DNA from: Giardia intestinalis
Lineage: Eukaryota
DNA: 64,000 nucleotides
Strand: one strand, 5' to 3'
Assembly (NCBI GenBank): GCA_000002435.2
Contig: CM018791.1
Positions 52,378 through 63,582 of the stretch are shown here, one piece after another. How positions within the stretch are numbered: position 1 is the stretch's first letter; each line of letters begins with the position of its first letter. Below the pieces are notes generated by a model that did not search any database, was not told where the DNA came from, and saw only the letters and a list, made by a program, of their open reading frames with translations. The position numbers were made by a program, and so were the translations under genes.

Positions 52378-55065
52378 TTATAGTAGTTTCACAAATTCTA
52401 TGAGAAAGTATAGTCTCCCGTTACTGCCAAGGATTCCGCGACCCTTACGGGTCATCTGTTCCCTATTGGAGCACTTACTAGCATAAAAGACGTGTTTTAG
52501 TAACTTGTTCATATTACTTAATAAGCTATGCTCTTCTTCTTCGGTAATGGGTGTACTAAAGTTCTGGTCATCAAACACCAGTATCATCCTCAACTTATTA
52601 TCAAACACCAAGGTATCGACATGCTCCTTTAATTTGGCCACTATGATTTTGAAGCTCTCTGTGTCGGTGCTCAACTTTGTCATCATGTCTATGGACAGCC
52701 TGTGCTCTTTGAGAATAAAAGGTTGCCTTGCCATGATCGTGTCCTTGAAGAACTGAATCCGGTAGAAGCACTGCTGCTCGACGCGCACTTGAAAGTTTGA
52801 AATGGCAAGCATCATTGAGGTTTCTGCTTTCTGTGTGTGCCTTCCTATTGATGACGGCCGTGCAGAAAGTGGGGGAGTGCTCAATTTGAGGTTGGGTGAA
52901 CAAGAATCCAGTTCGATCTTGAGCTCTGCTAGTAGACGCTCCACAAGTGTGTAAATAGCGTACCGCATGACACACAAATCTAGGTCACTCAGGGCTTGTG
53001 ATACACACGGATTTGGGGCTGAAGTTAGAGAAGCAATTGTAGAGGCAGCTGCACTTGAGTGGTTCGTGTTAGGACCTAGTGTGTAACCATCAAATGTACA
53101 ATCCTCTGGAAGTATCCACCCGTGCATGCTGTATGCGCCTGTATGTAGTATATAGCTCAAACCCTTCAGTAGTGTTTGTGCAGCAGGGCCTTCCATGTCT
53201 ACGAGCGTCTGAGAAAGACTTATCCGCTCACTGGCTTGGATATAGCTGGTTGAATTTCCCAGCTGCCGATAAATAAACTTCTTTGCTGGAGAGGCAGATT
53301 GCTTGTTCAGTGGAGGAGATAATTTTGATTTCGCTATATTGGTAGATGTCTTAGCCCTTCTCGGAGAGGGTTCGCGCAGAGTAGATGGAGGCCTTCCTGT
53401 TGGCGTCAAAGGAGAGTTTGTTAGCTGCAGAATGGACGTGAACGAGCCTGTGTTAGAAAGAGATGCTGGCTGATTGAACAAGACCACTTTCGGAGTTATA
53501 GGGAGGACTGCATCCAGCGTTCTATGTATTCTTTTATGCACTTCTTCATCTCGGTCTTTTAGAAAACTCATGGCATCATACAATTCAGAAACACAGAAAC
53601 ATTGGTTCTTGATGAAGTTTAGATTGTATTTAAGAGACGAAAGAGAAGTCACAGGCTCAGTGGCTTCAATACGGTCAACTGAGTAAAGAATGGGGAAGCC
53701 GGCAGTGTACAACAAGCTAGATGCCCGGGGGAAGAGCCTACAATACCAGTGCAGTGGGATGTTGACATAGTCAGAGCCATAAAACCGTGTTGCCGTGACA
53801 TATTTTATTGTATCGACTACATACCAGACACCTTCAATGGCCACAAGATTGCCAATAAGTGTTTCAGAAAGCTGAATGCGAAAAGCCGGAACACCTGCCT
53901 TGTTAAGAAGAAGCTGGAAAAGGTCTGGGATGATCGATGGAGACCCTATTGTATTGGTCATTACGGAATAGATATCTTTTGGGGAGTTGGTGTAGATGGC
54001 GCGAGTGTACGATGCATTGGTGCATGAGAATATTGGAAGAAGATTACTCATCACAATTGCCAGGCTAGCGTCGCCCACCAGGATACGGCGGATTATATCA
54101 AATACTAAAAGTTCTATCACGAAGGAATAGTCTACTTTGTACCTTTTCACACTGTGGACGGCTTCTCCTGCCGACACGGTCTTCACACGCAGCTTCCGTT
54201 GATAGTCTGCGAGAAACTGCTGCATATGCTGGCACAAATGATCCTGTGTGCGTAGCTTGCGGCACCAAATCGAAGCAGGGGATGACCAGGGGCTCGGATA
54301 TGCGTTGAAACAGATAGTTGTCACGACTGGATCCATACTGCGTGATGGCTCGCCAGCACCTGCCAGCCTAAGAAGCACAGGATAGAGGGTACTGTACTCT
54401 GGATAATCCCAATACAGACACGTCAAAATTAACCGAACATAAGACAGTGTGGTGATTATCTCGGGAACTAGGTTCAATAGACTGATTATAAACCTTCCTG
54501 ATTGAAGAGAATATGATAGAAGCTCATAGAGAAGTAGTAGTGAGCTACTGTACCTTGGGGAGCCCTCTGCTAGCAAAAGACGAGCGTACCGGGCACGGCC
54601 ATGATAGACTATAGCGGCTAATCTAGAGAGTTGATCACTGGAAAGATGTAAGTGGGCCAAGTCTGTGTTGGTGATAGAGGACGGCGCGAACTTGATCTCG
54701 CCTCCATTTGTGAGCTCAAGAAGGTCTTCAGCGTCTGGAATGGACGCTATATTATGTACCTTATGCCTTCGGGTACGCACAGGGGGCATGACTGGAGCTG
54801 TTGGAGCAGAGGGAGGGTGTGGCGGAGCCAATTTGGGTGCTATGTCAACACCGCAGGATTTGGGCCGTTTAGAGTCCCGTGATAAATGTGTGGAAGAACC
54901 AGATGTGTCCTTGTCTGGATCGCGCTGAGAGTCTGAGGCGCTTGACGTCTCTGTCACCTCTTGTGAAGTTCCCATTTGGAGCAGGCTTGTCTCGTCATCT
55001 GTAACAGCTTCCAAATGAGGGGTCACTATGGTGCTATAGCAGCCTGCACTAATCCCAGAACCCAT
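52378..55065 (-). CDS. Hypothetical protein of about 895 aa. The track start is TTG at 55092; the first ATG (55065) gives MGSGISAGC, a possible N-myristoylation/palmitoylation start.
   Basis: Long ORF. The MGxxxS consensus with Cys at +9. No family recognised. Confidence 0.5.
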   Translation of the reverse strand: MGSGISAGCYSTIVTPHLEAVTDDETSLLQMGTSQEVTETSSASDSQRDPDKDTSGSSTHLSRDSKRPKSCGVDIAPKLAPPHPPSAPTAPVMPPVRTRRHKVHNIASIPDAEDLLELTNGGEIKFAPSSITNTDLAHLHLSSDQLSRLAAIVYHGRARYARLLLAEGSPRYSSSLLLLYELLSYSLQSGRFIISLLNLVPEIITTLSYVRLILTCLYWDYPEYSTLYPVLLRLAGAGEPSRSMDPVVTTICFNAYPSPWSSPASIWCRKLRTQDHLCQHMQQFLADYQRKLRVKTVSAGEAVHSVKRYKVDYSFVIELLVFDIIRRILVGDASLAIVMSNLLPIFSCTNASYTRAIYTNSPKDIYSVMTNTIGSPSIIPDLFQLLLNKAGVPAFRIQLSETLIGNLVAIEGVWYVVDTIKYVTATRFYGSDYVNIPLHWYCRLFPRASSLLYTAGFPILYSVDRIEATEPVTSLSSLKYNLNFIKNQCFCVSELYDAMSFLKDRDEEVHKRIHRTLDAVLPITPKVVLFNQPASLSNTGSFTSILQLTNSPLTPTGRPPSTLREPSPRRAKTSTNIAKSKLSPPLNKQSASPAKKFIYRQLGNSTSYIQASERISLSQTLVDMEGPAAQTLLKGLSYILHTGAYSMHGWILPEDCTFDGYTLGPNTNHSSAAASTIASLTSAPNPCVSQALSDLDLCVMRYAIYTLVERLLAELKIELDSCSPNLKLSTPPLSARPSSIGRHTQKAETSMMLAISNFQVRVEQQCFYRIQFFKDTIMARQPFILKEHRLSIDMMTKLSTDTESFKIIVAKLKEHVDTLVFDNKLRMILVFDDQNFSTPITEEEEHSLLSNMNKLLKHVFYASKCSNREQMTRKGRGILGSNGRLYFLIEFVKLL

Positions 55066-55097
55066 CGCGGGAGGGATACCTCTCTGAGCCAAAATTT

Positions 55098-55904
55098 ATG
55101 TCTGTCTCACACTTAGCCCCGGAGTCGGCCAACCCGCAATGTGTGGATGACGTGTGTCTTAATTTGGTAGCATGCAAGAGCACACCGCATGATCGTGATA
55201 TTATGGAGCCGCAACTAAAGCATTTTACCGGTATCACAGACCCCTCTGCCTCACAGAAAACATTCTCGCTGTCCAAGCTTTGCGGGGAGCAGATTACAGG
55301 TACGCAAAAGGAAACTAAAGAAGATGAGGTGGCATCGACGCAGCAGACCCTGGTAATGTCCTGGAGATATGACAGCGATCCTCCGAAAATAACACGTAAG
55401 GAGATAGAGGACGCATTTAAAGCGCTCTCTATCGACACTTCTGTGACGGGGACAAGGGAATTCCAACATAAAATTTACATAGACTGCCTAACAAGGGTGA
55501 CCAAGCCACAGTTTGGGCCGATATGTCGCTACTTTGAGAGTTTGCACAAAAACACCCAGTTCTTCATGAGATATGATAAAGTGAACGACGAGGAGCAGGC
55601 GACTGTGTTCTTGGGAAACGTTCTTGGCCTCACTGCAAACGATCTGGCTAAATCCATCGAGCAAAGGCTTGGATTCATCCCCAAAGCTATTCGAATACCT
55701 ATTAACAAGCACACTGAAAAGCCTAAGCCAGTCGCATACGTGGTCTGTGATTCACGCGATCAAGCCAAAGAGCTGGCAGAAAACCTACGGGGCGAAAAGC
55801 TCGGTCTGTCCAGTGGCATCCGCACCGATCTGCTGGTTCACGAGGGCGAGTCCCGTGTAACTCTCAAGCCTAGGAAGCAACACAGTAAGTCTAAGACATC
55901 TTAG
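55098..55904 (+). CDS. Hypothetical protein with a C-terminal RRM-like domain.
   Basis: ATVFLGNVLGLTANDLAKSIEQRLGFIPKAIRIPINKHTEKPKPVAYVVCDSRDQAKELAENLRGEKL fits RNP2/alpha/beta/RNP1 RRM topology. AT-rich gccaaaatttATG. Confidence 0.4.
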   Translation: MSVSHLAPESANPQCVDDVCLNLVACKSTPHDRDIMEPQLKHFTGITDPSASQKTFSLSKLCGEQITGTQKETKEDEVASTQQTLVMSWRYDSDPPKITRKEIEDAFKALSIDTSVTGTREFQHKIYIDCLTRVTKPQFGPICRYFESLHKNTQFFMRYDKVNDEEQATVFLGNVLGLTANDLAKSIEQRLGFIPKAIRIPINKHTEKPKPVAYVVCDSRDQAKELAENLRGEKLGLSSGIRTDLLVHEGESRVTLKPRKQHSKSKTS

Positions 55905-56193
55905 ATTCAGATTCTAACTTGTTGCACACCTGTGCAAAAAAGTCGTCGGTGAACTGCTGACTCTGAGACATAAGCAAGCCCTCGATGGTAGGATACCCTA
56001 TCTGCGTTGCATGCTCTGGGGGACTGAGCACCTTGAACCCGGCTTCAGATAAATGAATGGTGAGAAGGACCCCGTGGAGCTTCAAAGTAAATGTAGCCGC
56101 AGTGGAGCTATGATCTAAGACGTTGACAAGCTCAAAGTCTCCAGCCGCAGAGCGTGATCGTATATACTCTAATTCCTCCTTGACCATAAGCAT
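55891..56193 (-). CDS. Small hypothetical protein (100 aa). Its 3' end overlaps the convergent gene by 14 nt.
   Basis: ATG ORF with a balanced, non-repetitive composition. No family recognised. Confidence 0.3.
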   Translation of the reverse strand: MLMVKEELEYIRSRSAAGDFELVNVLDHSSTAATFTLKLHGVLLTIHLSEAGFKVLSPPEHATQIGYPTIEGLLMSQSQQFTDDFFAQVCNKLESESKMS

Positions 56194-56250: not shown

Positions 56251-59200
56251 CTAATATGTGGGGCTATTGAAGTCTTCATTGCTTCCCAGCATCGTACTCT
56301 TGGCTCTGCTGCTCTGCTGCTTTCCCTTACGATGCTGACTCCGTATCATGAGATTCAAGGCCTTGACATCTTTATTTAACCGGACCCACAGAACGAGTGC
56401 CATAGTGTTCAGCGCCACAGCAAAGGCCGCGGCAACGGAGAAGGTGATAATGTACGTGGTGTTGTAGTCCTGGGATTGGATTGTGATGCTGGGGATGAAC
56501 CCCGAGTGTATACTAGTGTTAGTGACGCCGTCTATGGTGAGGCCCACGAGGGCTGTCTTCTTTTTGTTCCACAATTCGGCAAGGACTCTCTGGCAGCTCA
56601 TTCCAGCGTACTCCGTGCCAAAACCAGGCACCCAGTCTGTTTCGCATGAGAACCTGAGCACGTCTGTATCTCTGCTGAAGGTGCCTTGCTTTGCGAGCTT
56701 CCCCATTGAAAGGAGCATGGAGGAGTTGGTGTATATCTCGGCAGTGATCATATAGACGAGGGCGCCGGCCTCATTCAGACGGGTACTTGACACGTTGACA
56801 AGGTCGACTCCCTGCCAGATGGCGGCCTGCTCCAGGGTAGGGATGCTGCAATCCTTGGCCCCAGACTCTTGGAGGCGCAGGCTGAGGACTGTGGGTTCCA
56901 CTATGACTACGGTTCCGTTATAGCACCCAAGGTTGTATGTTACGTAATAGAAAGTAGACCGAATCATCCCGTTTCCAGAGGTGTCCATACTATCGTAAAA
57001 GGTGATGCGCACGTACCCATTCAACTTCTTCACAGTGCTAGTTGATACATTAGCAAAGAAACTGCGGCAACTGTCGGGGTGCACTGTCTTGTGATACCCT
57101 GTTCCACACAAAAACGGGATTGAAGCTGTCGACGTATAGGAAAAAGATGGAAAGGGTCTTTCTAAGACTATGGAATCGCTCGTTCTTTCATCCCTGACAA
57201 CCGCTGTTAACACAATTTGCTTAGTGGTGGGAGGAATAGAGCACAAGTGACTATTGATAGTATCATATCCTTTCATTACTGTGAAGACACTAATAGGTGA
57301 AATGACAACGCTGAACTCCTGTATGCAGTCCTCCATGTAGGTTGTTCGCAGGCTTGATAGTTCCACATCTACGTTTGCCTCCACTTCATCAATAATAAGC
57401 TGCAAAGACAATGTACCAGTCAACCAACTGACAGTAAAGTAGCTGTTGATACGACTAGCTAAGGCTGTATCGCGTTCATCGAGGGAGGCGCAATATGTTA
57501 ACTTTGAACTGGATATGGCTTCCACGGGTAGAGAGTATCTGTCATCTCGAGAAGTTAGATTATCGTTAAAATGAACAATAAGGGTGGATTGCACAATCTG
57601 GTTAGTAGATAAATAGGGGCATGCTTGGTTCCATGATAACCGAGCACATAACTGCGTGGTAGTTTCTTCCAGGGATTTGATATACTGAATACTGGAACCT
57701 TTGCTTATAAAGCAAGTATCATAGTCATACTTATCAAGAAGTATGTCACTTATAATAGTTGGCATGATATGCGTCGCTGACTCTATGGAAACAGAAGCGG
57801 ACGTGCTTGTTATCATCGCCAGCTTGCAGCTCTGCAAGGAGCTGGGATTACATGCGAGCCTTATCATGTTTGTATTTGAGAAACTAAAGTCGGATAGAGT
57901 CTGCACTATGGTGTCTTCGTAATCTGATAGGTTGAGTCGGACAATGGCCGTCGTGGAAAACGCTGCCCTGCACTCGGCAGTGTTTCTGGGACGCACGTTT
58001 AAAGTGAATGATAGGTTTTCATAGTTTGCTTGCAAGCTGATGTCCTCGCACCAGCATCCTTTTATCTCTGCCAAAACGGGGGCGTCCGCTCGCCGCACGC
58101 ATCTGTGGGTCTCCTGGTCGCACACGCTCAGTAGCGGGCAGTCGCTGTCGATGATGCAGCCAGCTTTGCACAGGTTGCCGCCGGCACAGGTCATAGAGAT
58201 CTGGTTCAGGGGAGATGTGGCTTGGGCAGCCAGCTGCTGAGTATTGTAATTGGCGTTACTCTCGAAAACACTGGGGTCCAAGGGCTTATTGTTTGTGCCT
58301 GTCCTCATTGGATCGCAGGGACTGTCGCTGTTTTTGGAGTCACATGTCAGATAGCAGAATCCGTCATCCAGGCCCTTGGTGTAACCATCTTGGCACGTCT
58401 CGGTCTTGAAGCGACACACCCCATCCAGTGCACACAGGGAAGGGTGTGGGCAGGCAACGCTCTTGCATTGGTAGTTGCAGGTTCCCTCGAAGGAGCACAG
58501 CCGGCCGCCCGTGCAATCCACGTCGCTGACGCAGACAGCCATGCAGTGGAGGCCTATGCAGGACAGTTTTGGGGTTTCTGTGCAGTCAGTATCACTACTA
58601 CACTTCTTAAAGCAAGAGCCGTAGAGGCATTCTTCCTTGTCCTGGCACTTGCTGCATTGATTGCGGCAGATACCGTCAGCCCCGCAAACCTGATCTGCAG
58701 AGCAATCGGTGCTACACTTCCAGACACAGGTGCCCGTGCTTGACGAGGTGGAGATGTTGCAGGTTTGTGAGGAAGAACAGTCAGCGTCATCCTTGCACCC
58801 GTCTTTGCAGTGCCCATTAAGACACGCCTCTCCAGTGATAACGCTGCAGTCCGCATTGAAGTAGCAGACCTTTTCGCAGTCTCCTGCGAGCGAGCACATG
58901 TAGCCACTGGGGCAGTCGGTGGCCTGGGCGCACTTCTGCCTGCAGACGCCGTTCCAGCAGTGAAGCCTCCCCTCTGATAAGCACTCCTTGGATTCCGTGC
59001 ATGTCCTGAAGCAAGACTCGTCTCTACAGACGGAGCCAGTGGGACAGTCGGTGTCACTAGCACATGTCTGGCGACAGATGCCGTCTATTCCGCAAGAGGT
59101 TTGGCCTGCACAAGACCCTGTGCAGCTCCAGCCACAAACTCCTTCAGCAGAACCAGAGGTGATGCAGCGCTGATTGTTTCCGCATCCCTGATCATTAGTA

Positions 59201-59463
59201 CATCTCATGGAACAGTGCCCATTGGTGCACTTCTGGCCTGCAGGGTAAATGCACGTGCCCTGGTGAGAGCATTTTTGCTGACATTTATTACTTGAACAAG
59301 CGACTATACCTGATGGTAGTGCTAAACTGGTTGAACATTCAGCATCATTGGAACACGATATTTGCTTTATATCTTCAACAACAGAGATAGCAGTATGTAG
59401 GTCACATAGTGCTGTGGTAATTGTAGTTAATAAGACAAGCAATCCGTAGATCACTGCATGCAT
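56251..59463 (-). CDS. High-cysteine membrane protein (HCMP-type; not a VSP because it lacks the CRGKA tail). It has a signal peptide, a ~470-aa CxxC-rich N-terminal half, a ~500-aa Cys-poor Ser/Thr-rich region, one TM segment and a ~45-aa cytoplasmic tail.
   Basis: Signal MHAVIYGLLVLLTTITTALC. More than 10 repeats of the C..DC..G..C....C type (CASDTDCPTGSVCRDESCFRTCTESKEC...). TM YIITFSVAAAFAVALNTMALVLWV. The C-terminus ...NEDFNSPTY is not CRGKA. Confidence 0.8.
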   Translation of the reverse strand: MHAVIYGLLVLLTTITTALCDLHTAISVVEDIKQISCSNDAECSTSLALPSGIVACSSNKCQQKCSHQGTCIYPAGQKCTNGHCSMRCTNDQGCGNNQRCITSGSAEGVCGWSCTGSCAGQTSCGIDGICRQTCASDTDCPTGSVCRDESCFRTCTESKECLSEGRLHCWNGVCRQKCAQATDCPSGYMCSLAGDCEKVCYFNADCSVITGEACLNGHCKDGCKDDADCSSSQTCNISTSSSTGTCVWKCSTDCSADQVCGADGICRNQCSKCQDKEECLYGSCFKKCSSDTDCTETPKLSCIGLHCMAVCVSDVDCTGGRLCSFEGTCNYQCKSVACPHPSLCALDGVCRFKTETCQDGYTKGLDDGFCYLTCDSKNSDSPCDPMRTGTNNKPLDPSVFESNANYNTQQLAAQATSPLNQISMTCAGGNLCKAGCIIDSDCPLLSVCDQETHRCVRRADAPVLAEIKGCWCEDISLQANYENLSFTLNVRPRNTAECRAAFSTTAIVRLNLSDYEDTIVQTLSDFSFSNTNMIRLACNPSSLQSCKLAMITSTSASVSIESATHIMPTIISDILLDKYDYDTCFISKGSSIQYIKSLEETTTQLCARLSWNQACPYLSTNQIVQSTLIVHFNDNLTSRDDRYSLPVEAISSSKLTYCASLDERDTALASRINSYFTVSWLTGTLSLQLIIDEVEANVDVELSSLRTTYMEDCIQEFSVVISPISVFTVMKGYDTINSHLCSIPPTTKQIVLTAVVRDERTSDSIVLERPFPSFSYTSTASIPFLCGTGYHKTVHPDSCRSFFANVSTSTVKKLNGYVRITFYDSMDTSGNGMIRSTFYYVTYNLGCYNGTVVIVEPTVLSLRLQESGAKDCSIPTLEQAAIWQGVDLVNVSSTRLNEAGALVYMITAEIYTNSSMLLSMGKLAKQGTFSRDTDVLRFSCETDWVPGFGTEYAGMSCQRVLAELWNKKKTALVGLTIDGVTNTSIHSGFIPSITIQSQDYNTTYIITFSVAAAFAVALNTMALVLWVRLNKDVKALNLMIRSQHRKGKQQSSRAKSTMLGSNEDFNSPTY

Positions 59464-59612
59464 AGTTTCGTTATGGCAACTTGCAAAAACACTGTCTCAG
59501 TTGTTATAAGTAAAAATATACTTGTGAGAGCCAAAGCTTTCAATTTTTTGATCTCATTTCAGTCCCTAGGTCCTGCACATCATAAGGTAGCCCGTCAGGC
59601 AATTGTGGCAGT

Positions 59613-62120
59613 ATGATTGCTTCGGCCTTCCTCCTCCTTTTCTATGCCAACACTCTTGCCCAGAATATCGGGCAAGATTTTTCTATCCTGGTAACTGCCA
59701 ATACTCCCACAGATGTTTCGCTAACCTTTAAAGAGGCCCTTCCAAACCTTGTTCCTATTCACAACAGCATCAGCATCGCATCTACTGTCCCTGTATCGGT
59801 TGTAATTCTTATGCTGGATTCCAATGACGAAAGCATTTACACTAAGACTGTTGAAGGAACAGCGATCTTTGAGTACAACATTTATCTGGAGCAGACAGGT
59901 GCATACAATCTTCGGCTGACCTCAAATGTCACGACCACACTTAAGGTGCTTGTTGAGCCCTTGCATCAGGAGTACCTTGGAGCAATTAATATTAGATCAA
60001 ACGAGCGTGTAGTTTACATCAAGGAGTTCTTGACGCTGGAGTCTGCAACCATCCTCTTAACGCATATACCCTCGGGGGTGACTGTGCACTACACTGTCTG
60101 CAACGGGGCTCCATCGAACCCTGTCCTGAGTCCCGGAGTGTGCAGCTCCTCTGCAAAGGTTGTTGCAAGTGACGGACAGGCGCTATTCTTCTTCCACGCA
60201 AAGACCGTGTTTCCAATCAGTGAACAGGTCGGCTCCAATATATGGTTATACACTTTCGAGTTTGATTTACCCAACCCCCTGACGGAAGCTGCTGCAGGCT
60301 CCATCACCTTCCTTAGTGTGAGAAAGCTAGACAGCGATACTGTGACCAACATCACATACCCTCTGCAGCTCGATGGTGAGTTCGTTTCCATTTCAGCCTT
60401 CGACTCCATCTCTGTTGTGTATAAAAATGATGTTCTTGTCACCCCGCAGCTTCTCCTTGAAGTATCTCTGCCATCTGAGTTTGTTATTACCAATATTTGT
60501 GTAAGCCATATCTCACCCTTTAACAACTGCGCGCCCGTGAAGACTGACTCTGCGTCTGTAAAGTTATCCATACCACTACCTGATTTTAAGCCAAGTACCC
60601 TCTACTACTTAGCCGTCTTTTGTGTGCTGACAAGTGACCAGCGCGAAAGCACCGTGGGGATCACCTCAGTGAAGCTAACAATGGCTACAGAAATAGAGCC
60701 AACGCCCATTGACTCCACATCTCCGGCTGCGTATAAGATGCTATGGTATGATGACACCGTCTATGATAAGCTTTTCTCTCCTTCACGACAAATTCACTTA
60801 AAACTCACAATCCCGAACACAGGGCTTCTTTTCGAGGGAGCTGATATCTATGTTGACTATCATCCTGCTACTCCCACAGAGATAGACGCTGACGGCCTTT
60901 GTCGGTATTCCACGAGGATAACGTCTGCTGATACTCAGACCATTTACTACTATGACATTCTTCACAATATGCACATGTATAAGGCTAGACCGGGAACATA
61001 CTACATTATCCTACATCCACACCTGATGTGCCTGAATACAGGGAAGATGTCGGTTCTGGAAGCCACCGTCTTCATCAAGATGTTCTCGACTAAAACGACT
61101 TTCAATCAAACGCAGTTAATAGAACGACATCAGCTCACAGTTGGGCTACTCTTTAGCCCTGCAGCCAGGCCCCTTGACCAAGTTGCAGACCCCTTGAAAC
61201 TAAACTTGTCACCGTTCCTGATACCATTCTCGGCAATAGCGGCAACAGAGGAGCTGACCCTATTCTACAACAGAGAATACGCAGATGACAACACCATTTG
61301 CTTCGAGCTGGCTCTGGGATCCCATGTCGATTTGCTTATCTCTGAAGTGACCAGGTACACTACCTTTGCTACCAACCAATCTGTGTACATTAAAAGCCTA
61401 AGCATAAAACCCAACTGTTTCAGCGTCTCAAAGAGCGCCACTAACACGCTGAGTGATAGTGCCCTGAGTACCGTTTTGAAACTCCAGATACACTCCACTA
61501 ATACGCTAAGCACTACAGCGCCTAGCGCCACCCTCTTCTGTGTCTACTCCTTACCAGCTGTCATTAAGGAATATATAATAATGCCAGCTAATCCTGCCTT
61601 TAGTGTCGTTTTCCCGGATAAATCCAAAATGGTGATGAGTTTTAGAGCCCTTTCGTCGCTTGTCTCTAACGTTAAAATAAAATACAGCATATTTATCATT
61701 CCAGTGGGAAGAGAAAATATCAATCCGGTGCCAACAACCTTTTGTGGCGTTCTTACAGCCATCACGCATGCATTAAATCCGGCCTGGAGGCAGCCTATTT
61801 TCAATTTGACTAGCAGTGTTGAGAAGCAAGACTATATTATTGCAAACATTCCTCTTTCACAGTTCCCCATAGGGACAAACCCCCTTACTCAGGAGTACAA
61901 CGCCTTTGTAATTGTAGAGGATGTTCTGGCAGGGACAACCGGTCTTTATATCAGCAGCAGGATCAAGTATGCTAAGATTAAGTTAACCAAACCAATTGTC
62001 ATTCAGTTGGGTATATCCTGTTCTATTATTATTCTCTCTGTGATAGGAATTATTATTACGGCCATCTTTTGCGGGCGCATGCTTAACGTGCATTACAGAC
62101 AAAAGCGCGTATTAGTGTGA
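59613..62120 (+). CDS. Novel type I membrane protein (835 aa) with a signal peptide, a Ser/Thr/N-glycosylation-site-rich ectodomain, one C-terminal TM segment and a short basic tail.
   Basis: Signal MIASAFLLLFYANTLAQ. TM IVIQLGISCSIIILSVIGIIITAIFC followed by GRMLNVHYRQKRVLV. Divergent from the HCMP, with a 149-bp spacer. Confidence 0.6.
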   Translation: MIASAFLLLFYANTLAQNIGQDFSILVTANTPTDVSLTFKEALPNLVPIHNSISIASTVPVSVVILMLDSNDESIYTKTVEGTAIFEYNIYLEQTGAYNLRLTSNVTTTLKVLVEPLHQEYLGAINIRSNERVVYIKEFLTLESATILLTHIPSGVTVHYTVCNGAPSNPVLSPGVCSSSAKVVASDGQALFFFHAKTVFPISEQVGSNIWLYTFEFDLPNPLTEAAAGSITFLSVRKLDSDTVTNITYPLQLDGEFVSISAFDSISVVYKNDVLVTPQLLLEVSLPSEFVITNICVSHISPFNNCAPVKTDSASVKLSIPLPDFKPSTLYYLAVFCVLTSDQRESTVGITSVKLTMATEIEPTPIDSTSPAAYKMLWYDDTVYDKLFSPSRQIHLKLTIPNTGLLFEGADIYVDYHPATPTEIDADGLCRYSTRITSADTQTIYYYDILHNMHMYKARPGTYYIILHPHLMCLNTGKMSVLEATVFIKMFSTKTTFNQTQLIERHQLTVGLLFSPAARPLDQVADPLKLNLSPFLIPFSAIAATEELTLFYNREYADDNTICFELALGSHVDLLISEVTRYTTFATNQSVYIKSLSIKPNCFSVSKSATNTLSDSALSTVLKLQIHSTNTLSTTAPSATLFCVYSLPAVIKEYIIMPANPAFSVVFPDKSKMVMSFRALSSLVSNVKIKYSIFIIPVGRENINPVPTTFCGVLTAITHALNPAWRQPIFNLTSSVEKQDYIIANIPLSQFPIGTNPLTQEYNAFVIVEDVLAGTTGLYISSRIKYAKIKLTKPIVIQLGISCSIIILSVIGIIITAIFCGRMLNVHYRQKRVLV

Positions 62121-62137: not shown

Positions 62138-62172
62138 GTCTCTACATCGTATGAGTGAGTTTAAAATTTGAA

Positions 62173-63582
62173 ATGAGCGATGAGCAGCCAGTTCAGCTCG
62201 GACAGTATGAGGTTTCGGAGCTGTTAGGGTCAGGGGCTTTTGCAAAGGTGCGCTTGGCAACCAGGAAGGATACGGGGAAGAAGTATGCAGTGAAGATCAT
62301 CAAGAAAGTGGGGCTATCTCAAAGAGCTGCCGACCGCCTAAACCTTGAGATTGCTGTCACAAAGGGCATTTCACACCCAAACGTCATAAAGATGCACGAA
62401 GTCATCGGGACGTCTTCAAAGTTCTGGCTGGTGATGGACTACCATGCCAACGGGGAGCTTCTAAAACACATGAAGACAAAATTGTCAGACGATCAGGCAT
62501 TTGACTACTTTATCCAGATAGCGTGCGCTCTTCGGTACTGTCACAGATTCGGGATTTGTCACCGAGACCTAAAGTTTGAAAATGTCCTGGTGGCGAATGA
62601 TGGGCATCTCGTGATAACTGACTTCGGTCTGGGAGCTATTTCTTACAACCCTGACAAGACCTTTTACTCACAGGCAACCTTCTGCGGCTCAACCCATTAC
62701 ATTGCTCCAGAGGTATCCTCTGGAAGCAGGTACGATGGGCGCAAATCGGATATCTGGTCCTTGGGAATCATGCTCTATGCCATGCTGATCGGCAAGCTGC
62801 CTTTCCCATCAGATAACTACGAGGTCCTTGTGGAGTCCATGCTTAATCGTCGCTATGACCCTATCCCTTCCTTTGTTAACGACCAGGCCAAGAACTTGCT
62901 GGAGGCGCTGCTGGAACCAGATCCTCGGACGAGACCCGACTGGAGGGAAATATTCAATTACCCGTGGATTGCATCGCGAGTCGCACTAGTGGATGAAGCT
63001 GGGCATACGGTGGACAAGTTCCCTAGTGAGATTACTGATACGGGTGTGCTCTGCAGAGTCATGCGAAAGAAGAAGGTGCATATGGAGATACCCCTTCATC
63101 CAAACAAGAAGTCGTACTCTGTCCTCTCCAACATACATGCTGCCTTAATGCAAACAAACAGCGCCCCAAGTACGGCTCAGCCTGTTTCTGATGAGGGATT
63201 CACCTGCCCCAGCTGTGGAAACATTGTGGTACCCCCTAAAACCGCCGATATAGCCAGCTACTCTGTCAAGAAGGCCATCATGATTTCAGACATAAGCATA
63301 TCAGATGCGCTGATTCTAGCTGCGTACGGTGTCAGAAAGGTGACGAAGAAACCGGTTGTGGTCTATCCTCACGAGTTTCGAGCAAGCTCGGACGTTCAGC
63401 TGATGGAAGCCCGCGTGTTCGGCACTCAGAAACTGGTCATCCTTATTGGTACTAACGACGCGGAGATGTACACGACGGTCAGTACTGTTCTGACAAACTT
63501 GGCAGCAGATAAGGCAAAGTTGTCTGCCATTACCCTAGGCCGAATTAATGACGTCTCAGTTGTTTGCGAAGATGCACGGTGA
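62173..63582 (+). CDS. CAMK-like (CAMKL/AMPK-related) Ser/Thr protein kinase, predicted active. The track start is GTG at 62155; the real ATG is at 62173 (MSDEQ).
   Basis: LGSGAFAKV, YAVKII, HRDLKFENVL, DFG, APEV and DIWSLGIMLYAML. AT-rich agtttaaaatttgaaATG. Confidence 0.8.
   Translation: MSDEQPVQLGQYEVSELLGSGAFAKVRLATRKDTGKKYAVKIIKKVGLSQRAADRLNLEIAVTKGISHPNVIKMHEVIGTSSKFWLVMDYHANGELLKHMKTKLSDDQAFDYFIQIACALRYCHRFGICHRDLKFENVLVANDGHLVITDFGLGAISYNPDKTFYSQATFCGSTHYIAPEVSSGSRYDGRKSDIWSLGIMLYAMLIGKLPFPSDNYEVLVESMLNRRYDPIPSFVNDQAKNLLEALLEPDPRTRPDWREIFNYPWIASRVALVDEAGHTVDKFPSEITDTGVLCRVMRKKKVHMEIPLHPNKKSYSVLSNIHAALMQTNSAPSTAQPVSDEGFTCPSCGNIVVPPKTADIASYSVKKAIMISDISISDALILAAYGVRKVTKKPVVVYPHEFRASSDVQLMEARVFGTQKLVILIGTNDAEMYTTVSTVLTNLAADKAKLSAITLGRINDVSVVCEDAR

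What the first reader, a model, noticed from the sequence alone, without database searches (positions are those of the whole stretch)
56251..62120. Divergent surface-protein pair: an HCMP with a half-Cys-rich, half-Cys-poor ectodomain, and a novel Ser/Thr-rich type I membrane protein
The minus-strand gene is a classic high-cysteine membrane protein for its first ~470 aa, with ~40-aa CxxC repeats. It then carries a ~500-aa Cys-poor, beta-rich region with many NxS/T sites before the TM, which is unusual for HCMPs that are Cys-rich throughout. It lacks the VSP CRGKA tail and has a longer cytoplasmic tail. 149 bp away and divergent lies an 835-aa signal-peptide/TM protein with a similar Ser/Thr-rich, glycosylation-site-rich ectodomain and no recognisable domain. 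A shared bidirectional promoter region suggests co-regulated surface antigens or encystation/host-interaction proteins.
Basis: partly seen in the sequence, partly recalled or inferred. Interest (0 to 1): 0.55.

Follow-up and report, generated by a model that had tools for sequence, protein, structure and literature searches.

The report
Giardia lipoprotein receptor and orphan neighbour
The cysteine-rich gene is the already characterised Giardia lipoprotein-uptake receptor GlLRP and its neighbour is an uncharacterised Giardia-only membrane protein, so the pair is mostly ordinary, apart from clear gene conversion between GlLRP and a paralog on another chromosome-scale contig.

Summary
Both ORFs exist exactly as described: 56251-59463(-), 1070 aa, and 59613-62120(+), 835 aa, with a 149-bp spacer. 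The window is Giardia intestinalis WB chromosome 3.

The minus-strand gene is GL50803_113565. This is GlLRP, a published type I endocytic receptor for LDL and chylomicrons with an AP-2-binding C-terminal FNSPTY motif. It is not a classic CxxC HCMP. It has 1 CXXC but 17 CXXXC and 27 CX5C, in ~23-aa four-Cys modules. No VSP, EGF or LDL-A domain is detectable.

The Cys-poor half is shared with only one detected relative, the paralog GL50803_94510 ('tenascin-like').

The neighbour, GL50803_8195, is a signal-peptide/TM orphan. It was found only in the G. intestinalis complex and is unrelated to the Cys-poor half of GlLRP (hhalign probability 0.09%).

Sequon counts are at chance level. dN/dS is 0.11-0.14. 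Published RNA-seq shows only slight induction on host contact. Co-regulated surface antigens are therefore not supported.

One side result was not found in the papers searched. GlLRP and 94510 are 95-100% identical in DNA over two tracts (paralog dS 0.02-0.10, ortholog dS ~0.55). A 256-codon central block, the signal peptide and the tail are anciently diverged (dS>2). This is domain-selective gene conversion.

The parts
56251..59463 (-). GlLRP gene (GL50803_113565), 1070 aa type I membrane protein, stop codon included
   Evidence: ORF. Exact match to XP_001706284.1 / KAE8302752.1. Identified as GlLRP in PMC6115752 and PMC6303297.
59404..59463 (-). Signal-peptide-like N-terminus (aa 1-20, MHAVIYGLLVLLTTITTALC). 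It lies within the unconverted N-terminal segment (aa 1-~65).
   Evidence: Hydropathy. Identity to the paralog is 38-48% nt, but 86-95% nt to the P15 ortholog.
58048..59355 (-). Cys-rich region (aa ~37-472). About 15 modules of ~23 aa with four Cys each (C-x5-C-x4-10-C-x3-4-C), arranged in a ~135-aa super-repeat.
   Evidence: Cys spacing and motif counts. No Pfam or PDB sequence match.
57709..59268 (-). Gene-conversion tract 1 (aa ~66-585). It is shared almost identically with the paralog GL50803_94510.
   Evidence: Paralog nt identity is 91-100% in WB and 97-100% in P15. Paralog dS is 0.098 (WB) and 0.018 (P15), against ortholog dS 0.52-0.55.
56941..57708 (-). Anciently diverged central block of the Cys-poor ectodomain (aa ~586-841). 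It is specific to GlLRP.
   Evidence: Paralogs: 44% aa identity, dS >2, dN 0.38-0.45. WB-P15 orthologs: 84% aa identity, dS 0.56, dN 0.086.
56356..56940 (-). Gene-conversion tract 2 (aa ~842-1036). It covers the membrane-proximal ectodomain, the TM helix and the first ~9 tail residues.
   Evidence: Paralog dS is 0.062 (WB) and 0.039 (P15), against ortholog dS 0.57-0.62.
56383..56454 (-). Transmembrane helix (aa 1004-1027, YIITFSVAAAFAVALNTMALVLWV)
   Evidence: Hydropathy. Invariant residues across the family.
56254..56271 (-). C-terminal FNSPTY, the published 'FXNPXY-type' endocytic motif that binds the AP-2 mu2 subunit
   Evidence: Sequence. Function from PMC6115752. The motif is absent from the paralog, whose tail ends ...LGSN. 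P15 reads FNSPTC.
59464..59612 (.). 149-bp spacer between the divergent start codons
   Evidence: The spacer is 145-160 bp in four other lineages.
59510..59523 (.). Conserved spacer block GTAAAAATRTACTT, a candidate core promoter element
   Evidence: Conserved in all five lineages aligned, while the rest of the spacer diverges. Unique in the window, with 0 expected by chance. Promoter function is an inference.
59543..59551 (.). Second conserved spacer block ATTTTTTGA
   Evidence: Invariant in five lineages. The 9-mer is not rare: 2 matches in the window against 0.67 expected.
59613..62120 (+). GL50803_8195, an 835-aa type I membrane protein of unknown function, stop codon included
   Evidence: ORF. 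Exact match to XP_001706286.1. Orthologs at 67-99% identity, found only in the G. intestinalis complex.
61995..62072 (+). Transmembrane helix of GL50803_8195 (aa 795-820), followed by a 15-aa basic tail (62073-62117)
   Evidence: Hydropathy. Conservation.

Best explanation
The locus holds two conserved genes of Giardia intestinalis WB (chromosome 3) that show no detected functional link.

**Gene 1: GlLRP (GL50803_113565).** It is a type I membrane receptor. According to published experiments, it cycles between the plasma membrane and the peripheral vacuoles. It takes up host LDL, chylomicrons and (indirectly shown) lactoferrin, and is internalised through binding of its C-terminal FNSPTY motif to the AP-2 mu2 subunit.
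- The half-Cys-rich, half-Cys-poor ectodomain is the normal architecture of this receptor and of its single detected paralog, GL50803_94510.
- Shown here: the two paralogs lie on different chromosome-scale contigs and are homogenised by gene conversion over two tracts. These are the Cys-rich modules plus the first part of the Cys-poor region, and the membrane-proximal part plus the TM helix.
- The signal peptide, a 256-residue central block and the cytoplasmic tail stay anciently different.
- Inferred: the pair shares the N-terminal region that the literature calls ligand-binding, but differs in the central block and in trafficking signals.

**Gene 2: GL50803_8195.** It is a lineage-restricted type I membrane protein of the secretory or endocytic system. 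It has a large, probably all-beta ectodomain and a short basic tail. It is expressed in trophozoites and is under purifying selection. Its function is unknown, and I found no evidence linking it to GlLRP. The head-to-head arrangement is ordinary gene packing in a compact genome.
For: - **Identity.** Both proteins match WB RefSeq/GenBank entries exactly. The same sequences appear under accessions of two different series (XP_ and KAE; I take these to be the 2007 and 2020 WB assemblies).
- **GlLRP function (literature).** PMC6115752, PMC6303297 and PMC3423367 all cite Rivero et al. 2011, Mol Microbiol 79:1204.
- **Motif.** FNSPTY is at the C-terminus.
- **Architecture.** The architecture was found only in 94510 and in the orthologs of the two genes.
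- **Conversion.** nt identity and dS by segment, in WB and independently in P15.
- **Gene 2 distribution.** Only G. intestinalis-complex orthologs were found by the word-indexed search, by the profile search, and by full HMMER against 1.84 billion representatives.
- **Gene 2 fold.** The model is predicted all-beta, but confidence is low.
- **Selection.** dN/dS is 0.108 for gene 2 and 0.144 for GlLRP. Neighbouring genes give 0.03-0.12.
- **No relationship between the two ectodomains**.
- **Expression.** Changes on host contact are weak.
- **Synteny.** The whole neighbourhood is collinear in P15.
Against: - The name 'LRP' is not backed by detectable homology. No LDL-A, EGF or YWTD domain is found by Pfam or by PDB sequence and profile searches. 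The receptor mechanism therefore rests entirely on the cited experiments, which I could not read in the original (PMC3043124 is not held).
- Those experiments used antisense RNA. The two paralogs share 1764 nt in exact runs of at least 21 nt, so antisense may not distinguish GlLRP from 94510.
- The terminal Tyr of the motif is Cys in the P15 assembly.
- For gene 2 there is no positive functional evidence at all. Both structure predictions failed, with mean pLDDT 43 and 33.
- The spacer has two blocks conserved across five lineages, so shared promoter elements cannot be excluded.
Confidence: 0.8

Rival explanations
1. First reader's reading. The two genes are a co-regulated pair of surface antigens, or of encystation or host-interaction proteins, driven by one bidirectional promoter. 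The first gene is an unusual HCMP.
For: - The spacer is short (149 bp), and its length and two AT-rich blocks are conserved in five lineages.
- Both genes encode signal-peptide/TM proteins.
- Both go slightly up on Caco-2 contact.
- A preprint groups 113565 with former HCMPs as a 'CRMP'.
Against: - Induction is far below two-fold: log2FC 0.26-0.66.
- dN/dS is 0.11-0.14, like the neighbouring genes.
- Neither gene ID was found in the supplementary tables of one co-culture secretome study.
- There is only one CXXC, and no VSP-family Pfam hit.
- The gene has a published endocytic-receptor role.
- The ectodomains are unrelated.
- Collinearity extends to all neighbouring genes, so the pairing is not special.
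Confidence: 0.1
2. GlLRP is a true, divergent member of the LDL-receptor family by common descent. Its Cys-rich modules are degenerate LDL-A or EGF repeats.
For: - The literature states that it shares the N-terminal ligand-binding domain and an FXNPXY-type motif with human LRP1, and that it takes up LDL and chylomicrons.
- Acidic D-x-D-C stretches precede many modules.
- It has a single TM and a Tyr-based tail motif.
Against: - There is no Ldl_recept_a, Ldl_recept_b or EGF hit in Pfam, even at E<=10.
- No PDB chain matches by phmmer or by family profile. The best hit is E 0.39, to a WAP-type protein.
- Modules have four Cys in ~23 aa, not six in ~40 aa.
- The tail reads N-S-P-T-Y, not N-P-x-Y.
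Confidence: 0.08
3. The mosaic similarity to GL50803_94510 is an assembly artefact (collapsed or chimeric repeats), or reflects strong purifying selection. It is not gene conversion.
For: - Short-read Logan contigs and the GS_B gene model break inside tract 1, so this region is hard to assemble.
- The DH isolate's syntenic copy carries a 94510-type central block, which could be a chimeric draft assembly.
Against: - The WB sequences are identical under accessions of two different series, which I take to be two WB assemblies.
- The WB paralogs still differ at 64 positions in tract 1, so they are not collapsed.
- The same two tracts, with almost the same boundaries, are seen independently in P15.
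- Synonymous sites are homogenised too. Paralog dS is 0.02-0.10, while the same codons differ at dS ~0.55 between isolates. Selection on the protein cannot explain this.
Confidence: 0.04
4. GL50803_8195 is a dedicated partner of GlLRP, either a chaperone or escort (as RAP and MESD are for LDL-receptor-family proteins) or a co-receptor. That would explain why the head-to-head pairing is retained.
For: - The pairing and spacer are conserved in five lineages.
- Both are secretory-pathway type I proteins.
- Both are expressed in trophozoites.
Against: - There is no sequence or profile similarity to any known chaperone or to any other protein.
- Local synteny is conserved for all neighbouring genes.
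- At the paralog locus, the one upstream neighbour tested (a 792-aa ORF in P15) is unrelated to 8195.
Confidence: 0.08

Closest known systems
[quoted passage not shown] 2011, Mol Microbiol 79:1204)
   Same: It is the same gene, with an identical 1070-aa sequence. It is a type I membrane protein with FNSPTY at the C-terminus. The published role is AP-2-dependent uptake of LDL and chylomicrons.
   Different: Nothing differs. What I add is the module anatomy, the lack of detectable LDL-A or EGF domains, and the gene-conversion mosaic with 94510.
GL50803_94510, 'Tenascin-like protein' (XP_001704397.1), the WB paralog on a 1.485-Mb contig
   Same: It has the same overall architecture and a similar length (1063 aa). 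DNA identity is 95-100% over aa ~66-585 and ~842-1036.
   Different: The signal peptide differs (39% aa identity). The central 256 aa differ (44% aa identity, dS>2). The tail differs: it ends ...LGSN and has no FNSPTY. Its neighbouring genes in P15 are different, and the one upstream ORF tested is unrelated to 8195.
Mammalian LDL-receptor family (LDLR, LRP1)
   Same: It works alike according to the literature: a single-pass receptor with a Cys-rich N-terminal ligand-binding region and a Tyr-based tail motif, with adaptor-mediated endocytosis of lipoproteins.
   Different: No LDL-A, EGF or YWTD modules are detectable. Modules are ~23 aa with four Cys. The ~530-aa Cys-poor region has no detectable counterpart in Pfam or PDB. 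The motif is NSPTY rather than NPxY.
Giardia VSP / HCMP (CRMP) Cys-rich membrane proteins
   Same: It has a signal peptide, a Cys-rich ectodomain, one C-terminal TM and a non-CRGKA tail. A preprint includes it among 94 'CRMPs'.
   Different: There is one CXXC, against the CXXC majority typical of VSPs and most CRMPs. It belongs to a four-member CXXXC-rich subclass. Cys content is 7.9% overall, and half of the ectodomain is Cys-poor. There is no VSP-family Pfam hit.

Membership tests
GlLRP (GL50803_113565) identity | The amino-acid sequence is identical to the deposited WB protein | tested here: met
   The exact look-up returns XP_001706284.1 / KAE8302752.1 on the 1,973,847-bp WB contig.
LDL-receptor family (LDLR/LRP1) | LDL-receptor class A (complement-type) ligand-binding repeats: six Cys in ~40 aa with an acidic calcium cage | tested here: not met
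   No Pfam hit at E<=0.1 or E<=10. No PDB chain matched by phmmer at E<=10 or by family profile. Modules are ~23 aa with four Cys. HMMER's filters may hide very weak matches.
LDL-receptor family (LDLR/LRP1) | EGF-precursor homology region (EGF repeats plus YWTD beta-propeller) | tested here: not met
   No EGF or Ldl_recept_b Pfam hit on either half of the protein. The structure model was too poor to test by fold.
LDL-receptor family (LDLR/LRP1) | Cytoplasmic NPxY / FxNPxY endocytic motif | tested here: inconclusive
   The tail ends F-N-S-P-T-Y. The Asn is shifted by one position, so there is no canonical N-P-x-Y. The literature calls it 'FXNPXY-type' and reports mu2 binding. P15 has Cys in place of the Tyr.
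LDL-receptor family (LDLR/LRP1) | Binds and internalises lipoproteins by adaptor-dependent endocytosis | not testable with these tools
   Reported in the literature only. The antisense reagent may also hit the paralog.
Giardia VSP | Conserved C-terminal CRGKA tail and frequent CXXC motifs | tested here: not met
   The tail is 43 aa and ends FNSPTY. There is one CXXC. No VSP-family Pfam hit.
Giardia HCMP (classic definition, from my recollection of Davids et al. 2006: about 10% Cys or more and many CXXC/CXC motifs, with a C-terminal TM) | High Cys content throughout, with numerous CXXC/CXC motifs | tested here: not met
   Cys content is 7.9%, with 1 CXXC and 1 CXC. The protein does meet the looser 'CRMP' criteria of the preprint (>=4% Cys; two or more CXC/CXXC/CXXXC motifs; signal peptide; TM; non-CRGKA tail). 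The preprint lists it as an atypical CXXXC-rich case.
Giardia tenascin-like proteins (the annotation of the paralog) | EGF-like repeats; secreted without a TM; CXC-dominated Cys motifs | tested here: not met
   No EGF Pfam hit. A TM helix is present. There is one CXC. The preprint notes that 94510 is the only 'tenascin-like' gene with a TM, and moves it to the CRMPs.
Concerted evolution by gene conversion (process, not family) | Paralogs within a genome are more alike than orthologs between genomes at synonymous sites, in bounded tracts, with flanking segments showing the opposite pattern | tested here: met
   In the tracts, paralog dS is 0.02-0.10 against ortholog dS 0.52-0.62. In the central block, paralog dS is >2 against ortholog dS 0.56-0.60. 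The pattern is seen in both WB and P15.

The most novel reading that the evidence does not exclude
GlLRP and GL50803_94510 form a receptor pair kept partly identical by recurrent gene conversion between different chromosome-scale contigs.
- The tract boundaries are nearly the same in assemblages A and E. The Cys-rich region that the literature calls ligand-binding, and the membrane-proximal/TM part, are homogenised.
- A 256-residue central cassette, the signal peptide and the trafficking tail (FNSPTY versus none) are protected from conversion.
- In isolate DH the cassette itself appears to have been overwritten.

If this is true, Giardia maintains two receptors with the same Cys-rich region but different sorting. 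Published antisense and short-read expression data for 'GlLRP' would then report on both genes together.
Probability: 0.6. Interest if true: 0.45.

Novelty: already known. Interest (0 to 1): 0.3.

Why it matters
As flagged, the finding matters little. The 'unusual HCMP' is a receptor described in 2011, and the neighbour is one of many Giardia-specific hypothetical proteins.

Three points may be useful to people working on Giardia:
- **Nomenclature.** The 'LRP' and 'tenascin-like' names are not supported by detectable homology. They should be read as functional or historical labels.
- **Reagent specificity.** GlLRP shares about 2.1 kb of near-identical DNA with GL50803_94510. Antisense knock-downs, antibodies to the Cys-rich half, and short-read expression values cannot separate the two genes.
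- **Ectopic recombination.** The sharply bounded conversion tracts, seen independently in two assemblages, are a clean example of ongoing recombination between different chromosome-scale contigs in an organism whose sexual cycle is debated. They also mark the central block and the tail as the parts that selection keeps different.

Tried and rejected
- **AlphaFold2 of GL50803_8195** with its 5-sequence alignment gave mean pLDDT 43. Only aa ~20-116 were moderately confident.
- **Foldseek of that model against the PDB** gave generic multi-beta-sandwich proteins (cytokine receptors, alpha-2-macroglobulin/complement, SID1 ectodomain). TM-scores were ~0.1 and rmsd 10-60 Å. I treat this as uninformative.
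- **AlphaFold2 of whole GlLRP** with 4 sequences gave mean pLDDT 33. It was unusable, so I ran no fold search on it.
- **Pfam** at E<=0.1 and E<=10 on both proteins and on the two halves of GlLRP found nothing.
- **PDB sequence searches** with single sequences and family profiles found nothing below E 0.39.
- **Profile-profile comparison** of the GlLRP Cys-poor half with the 8195 family showed no relation.
- **Sensitive self-BLASTP** of the Cys-poor half and of 8195 found no internal repeats.
- **TRF** on the Cys-rich coding DNA found no tandem DNA repeats.
- **Searches for 8195 relatives** by profile search and by full HMMER against 1.84 billion representatives returned only the G. intestinalis complex.
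- **A metagenome contig scan** for the GlLRP Cys-poor half found nothing.
- **Literature searches** for GL50803_8195 found no main-text mention.
- **The original GlLRP paper** (PMC3043124) is not held.
- **A duplicated two-gene unit** was considered and rejected. The ORF upstream of the P15 paralog is unrelated to 8195.
- **A di-lysine ER-retrieval signal** in the 8195 tail was considered. KxKxx fits only one lineage (P0007...KIKLV) and is not conserved, so I dropped it.
Full report
**1. What is in the sequence**

- ORF A is 56251..59463 on the minus strand (1070 aa).
- ORF B is 59613..62120 on the plus strand (835 aa).
- The start codons are 149 bp apart.

ORF A has a hydrophobic N-terminus, one C-terminal TM helix (aa 1004-1027) and a 43-residue tail. 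It has 84 cysteines. Density is 8-10 per 50 residues over aa 51-350 and falls to 0-2 per 50 beyond aa ~500.

ORF B has a signal-peptide-like N-terminus, one TM helix (aa 795-820), a 15-residue basic tail and only 13 cysteines.

**2.

*The repeat type.* The Cys-rich half does not consist of CxxC repeats.
- The whole protein has one CXXC and one CXC, against 17 CXXXC and 27 CX5C.
- The unit is a ~23-residue module with four Cys (C-x5-C-x4-10-C-x3-4-C), often preceded by an acidic D-x-D stretch.
- Cys positions autocorrelate at 6, 23 and 45 residues. Residue identity peaks at ~135 residues, which indicates a super-repeat of about six modules.
- The coding DNA has no tandem repeat.

*Glycosylation sites.* The sequon counts are 10 in A and 6 in B. 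Composition alone predicts about 10.5 and 7.4 (counts; my arithmetic).

*Ser/Thr content.* It is 21.1% and 19.2%, against 16.1% pooled over the window's long ORFs. This is mildly raised and not mucin-like.

**3. Identity**

An exact-sequence look-up places the window in Giardia intestinalis WB (ATCC 50803), on the 1.97-Mb chromosome contig.
- ORF A is GL50803_113565 (XP_001706284.1 = KAE8302752.1).
- ORF B is GL50803_8195 (XP_001706286.1 = KAE8302753.1).
- Both are annotated 'hypothetical'.
- A published supplementary table lists both genes on chr3.

GL50803_113565 is not uncharacterised. [quoted passage not shown] 2011, Mol Microbiol 79:1204, cited). The literature reports the following.
- It internalises LDL and chylomicrons.
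- It carries an 'FXNPXY-type' motif that binds the mu2 subunit of AP-2. This binding is needed for its localisation, processing and function (PMC6115752).
- Antisense depletion slows growth and blocks LDL and lactoferrin uptake. Direct lactoferrin binding could not be shown (PMC6303297).

The window protein ends ...NEDFNSPTY. I could not read the 2011 paper itself.

**4. Family placement, tested**

Neither half of GlLRP, nor ORB B's product, hits any Pfam family, even at E<=10. Neither the single sequences nor the family profiles hit any PDB chain at better than E 0.39.

No LDL-A, YWTD, EGF or Giardia VSP domain is therefore detectable by sequence.
- GlLRP works like an LDL-receptor-family protein according to published experiments. 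I cannot file it as a homologous member.
- The tail motif is N-S-P-T-Y, not N-P-x-Y.
- It is also not a classic VSP or HCMP.
- A preprint from the Luján group includes it among 94 'Cys-rich membrane proteins'. [quoted passage not shown]
- That preprint says the 'tenascin-like' proteins proper are mostly secreted, lack a TM and are CXC-rich. GlLRP is none of these.

**5. The Cys-poor half**

A search of 5.8 billion clustered proteins returned only three relatives.
- The best hit is a paralog in the same WB genome. It lies on a different chromosome-scale contig (1.485 Mb): GL50803_94510, 'Tenascin-like protein'.
- The other two are that paralog's relatives in P15 and GS_B.
- The syntenic P15 ortholog of GlLRP (GLP15_1378, 1070 aa, 85% identity) was recovered from the P15 locus.

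The half-and-half architecture was therefore found only in this two-gene family and is not a common HCMP layout. The search is word-indexed, so distant relatives could be missed.

No internal repeats are detectable in the Cys-poor half. AlphaFold2 with the four available sequences gave mean pLDDT 33. Its fold remains unknown.

**6. Gene conversion between the paralogs**

I did not find this described in the papers searched.

The alignment of GlLRP with 94510 is a mosaic. The table gives codon-level results for WB and P15.

| Segment (GlLRP residues) | Paralog nt identity | Paralog dS, WB / P15 | Ortholog dS, WB-P15 |
|---|---|---|---|
| Tract 1 (~66-585) | mostly 94-100% (86-91% in the first ~55 codons) | 0.098 / 0.018 | 0.52-0.55 |
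| Central block (~586-841) | 52-69% | >2 (dN 0.38-0.45) | 0.56-0.60 (dN ~0.08) |
| Tract 2 (~842-1036) | 94-100% | 0.062 / 0.039 | 0.57-0.62 |

- The first ~65 codons and the last ~34 codons behave like the central block.
- In the tracts, sequences group by isolate. In the other segments they group by gene.
- Synonymous sites are homogenised, so purifying selection cannot be the cause.
- The WB sequences are the same under accessions of two different series (XP_ and KAE), which I take to be two WB assemblies. They still differ at 64 positions in tract 1. This argues against assembly collapse.
- The tract boundaries are nearly the same in WB and P15.

The duplication is therefore old, and gene conversion has continued since assemblages A and E split.

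In the DH (AII) draft genome, the syntenic copy keeps the GlLRP-type N-terminus and tail. Its central block is 94510-type (99.2% identical). This is either a further conversion or a chimeric draft assembly.

Short-read contigs from other lineages, and the GS_B gene model, break inside tract 1. This is expected if near-identical copies exist there too.

My inference is that the homogenised parts, which include the N-terminal region the literature calls ligand-binding, are shared. The central block and the trafficking tail are kept different; 94510 ends ...LGSN and has no FNSPTY.

There is a practical consequence. The WB paralogs share 1764 nt in exact runs of at least 21 nt, the longest being 202 nt. 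Antisense reagents and short-read expression values cannot separate them.

**7. The neighbour, GL50803_8195**

- Orthologs at 67-99% identity were found only in the G. intestinalis complex, from at least five lineages. Three searches agree: the word-indexed search, the profile search, and full HMMER against 1.84 billion representatives.
- AlphaFold2 predicts an all-beta ectodomain but with mean pLDDT 43. The Foldseek matches are generic strings of beta-sandwich domains with TM-scores near 0.1. I give them no weight.
- It is unrelated to the Cys-poor half of GlLRP. BLASTP best E is 0.2. hhalign probability is 0.09%.
- WB-P15 dN/dS is 0.108. GlLRP gives 0.144 and the flanking genes 0.03-0.12. 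This is ordinary purifying selection.
- No paper in the library mentions it in the main text.

My best guess is a lineage-specific type I membrane protein of the secretory or endocytic system. This is a weak inference.

**8. Co-regulation**

The head-to-head arrangement and a 145-160-bp spacer are conserved in WB, P15 and three further lineages.

The spacer contains two blocks conserved against a diverged background.
- GTAAAAATRTACTT (window 59510-59523) is unique in the window.
- ATTTTTTGA (59543-59551) occurs twice in the window.

These are plausible core promoter elements, possibly shared. That is an inference.

Conserved adjacency is weak evidence here, because the whole neighbourhood is collinear between isolates.

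From my own knowledge, short intergenic regions and bidirectional promoter activity are general features of Giardia.

In published RNA-seq of Caco-2 contact (1.5, 3 and 4.5 h):
- 8195 rises by log2FC 0.36, 0.55 and 0.66.
- 113565 appears only at 4.5 h, at 0.26. The stored tables were truncated, so its absence at the earlier times is not firm.
- Both are far below the strongly induced HCMPs of that study.

Neither gene ID was found in the supplementary tables of one secretome study.

**9. Verdict**

- The 'unusual HCMP' is the known receptor GlLRP.
- The neighbour is a genuine orphan with no evidence of a link to it.
- The co-regulated surface-antigen idea is not supported.
- The one result of some interest is the domain-selective gene conversion between GlLRP and GL50803_94510, with its consequences for how published GlLRP experiments are read.

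Noticed in passing
L002:4628-4636 (P15 GLP15_1378 3' end), against window 56254-56256: In the P15 (assemblage E) assembly the last codon of GlLRP is TGT (Cys) instead of TAT (Tyr). The published AP-2-binding motif therefore reads FNSPTC. This is either a real loss of the key tyrosine or a sequencing error.
   Followed up: partly
P0030 (DHA2_152495), aligned to window 56941-57708: The DH (assemblage AII) syntenic GlLRP copy has a GlLRP-type N-terminus and tail. Its central 256 residues are 99.2% identical to the paralog GL50803_94510. This is either an extra conversion event or a chimeric draft assembly.
   Followed up: partly
L003:1-399 (minus strand) and the start of P0003: A short-read contig of a B-like lineage and the GS_B partial gene model both break at the same place inside conversion tract 1 (...CGIDGICR...). 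This suggests that near-identical paralog tracts also exist in that lineage.
   Followed up: no
window 55891-55904: The RRM-protein ORF (55098-55904, +) and the 100-aa GSKIP-domain ORF (55891-56193, -) converge and overlap by 14 bp at their 3' ends. The same 14-bp overlap is present in P15 (L002:4267-4280).
   Followed up: partly
window 62155-63582 and 52378-55092: The mechanical ORF list starts the protein kinase at a GTG (475 aa) and the large upstream ORF at a TTG (904 aa). The P15 orthologs are 469 and 895 aa. This fits the first in-frame ATGs, at about 62173 and about 55065 on the minus strand. The exact 475-aa kinase sequence was accordingly not found in the protein collection.
   Followed up: partly
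window 58222-58743(+), 58554-59063(-), 60089-60571(-): ORFs of 160-173 aa lie in other frames or on the opposite strand inside the two genes. They are most likely chance ORFs and not genes.
   Followed up: no
L006 (ERR3333383) and L007 (SRR17450160): Two further Giardia lineages have 8195 orthologs only 67-69% identical to WB. Both show the same head-to-head GlLRP/8195 arrangement. I did not determine which assemblages they belong to.
   Followed up: no
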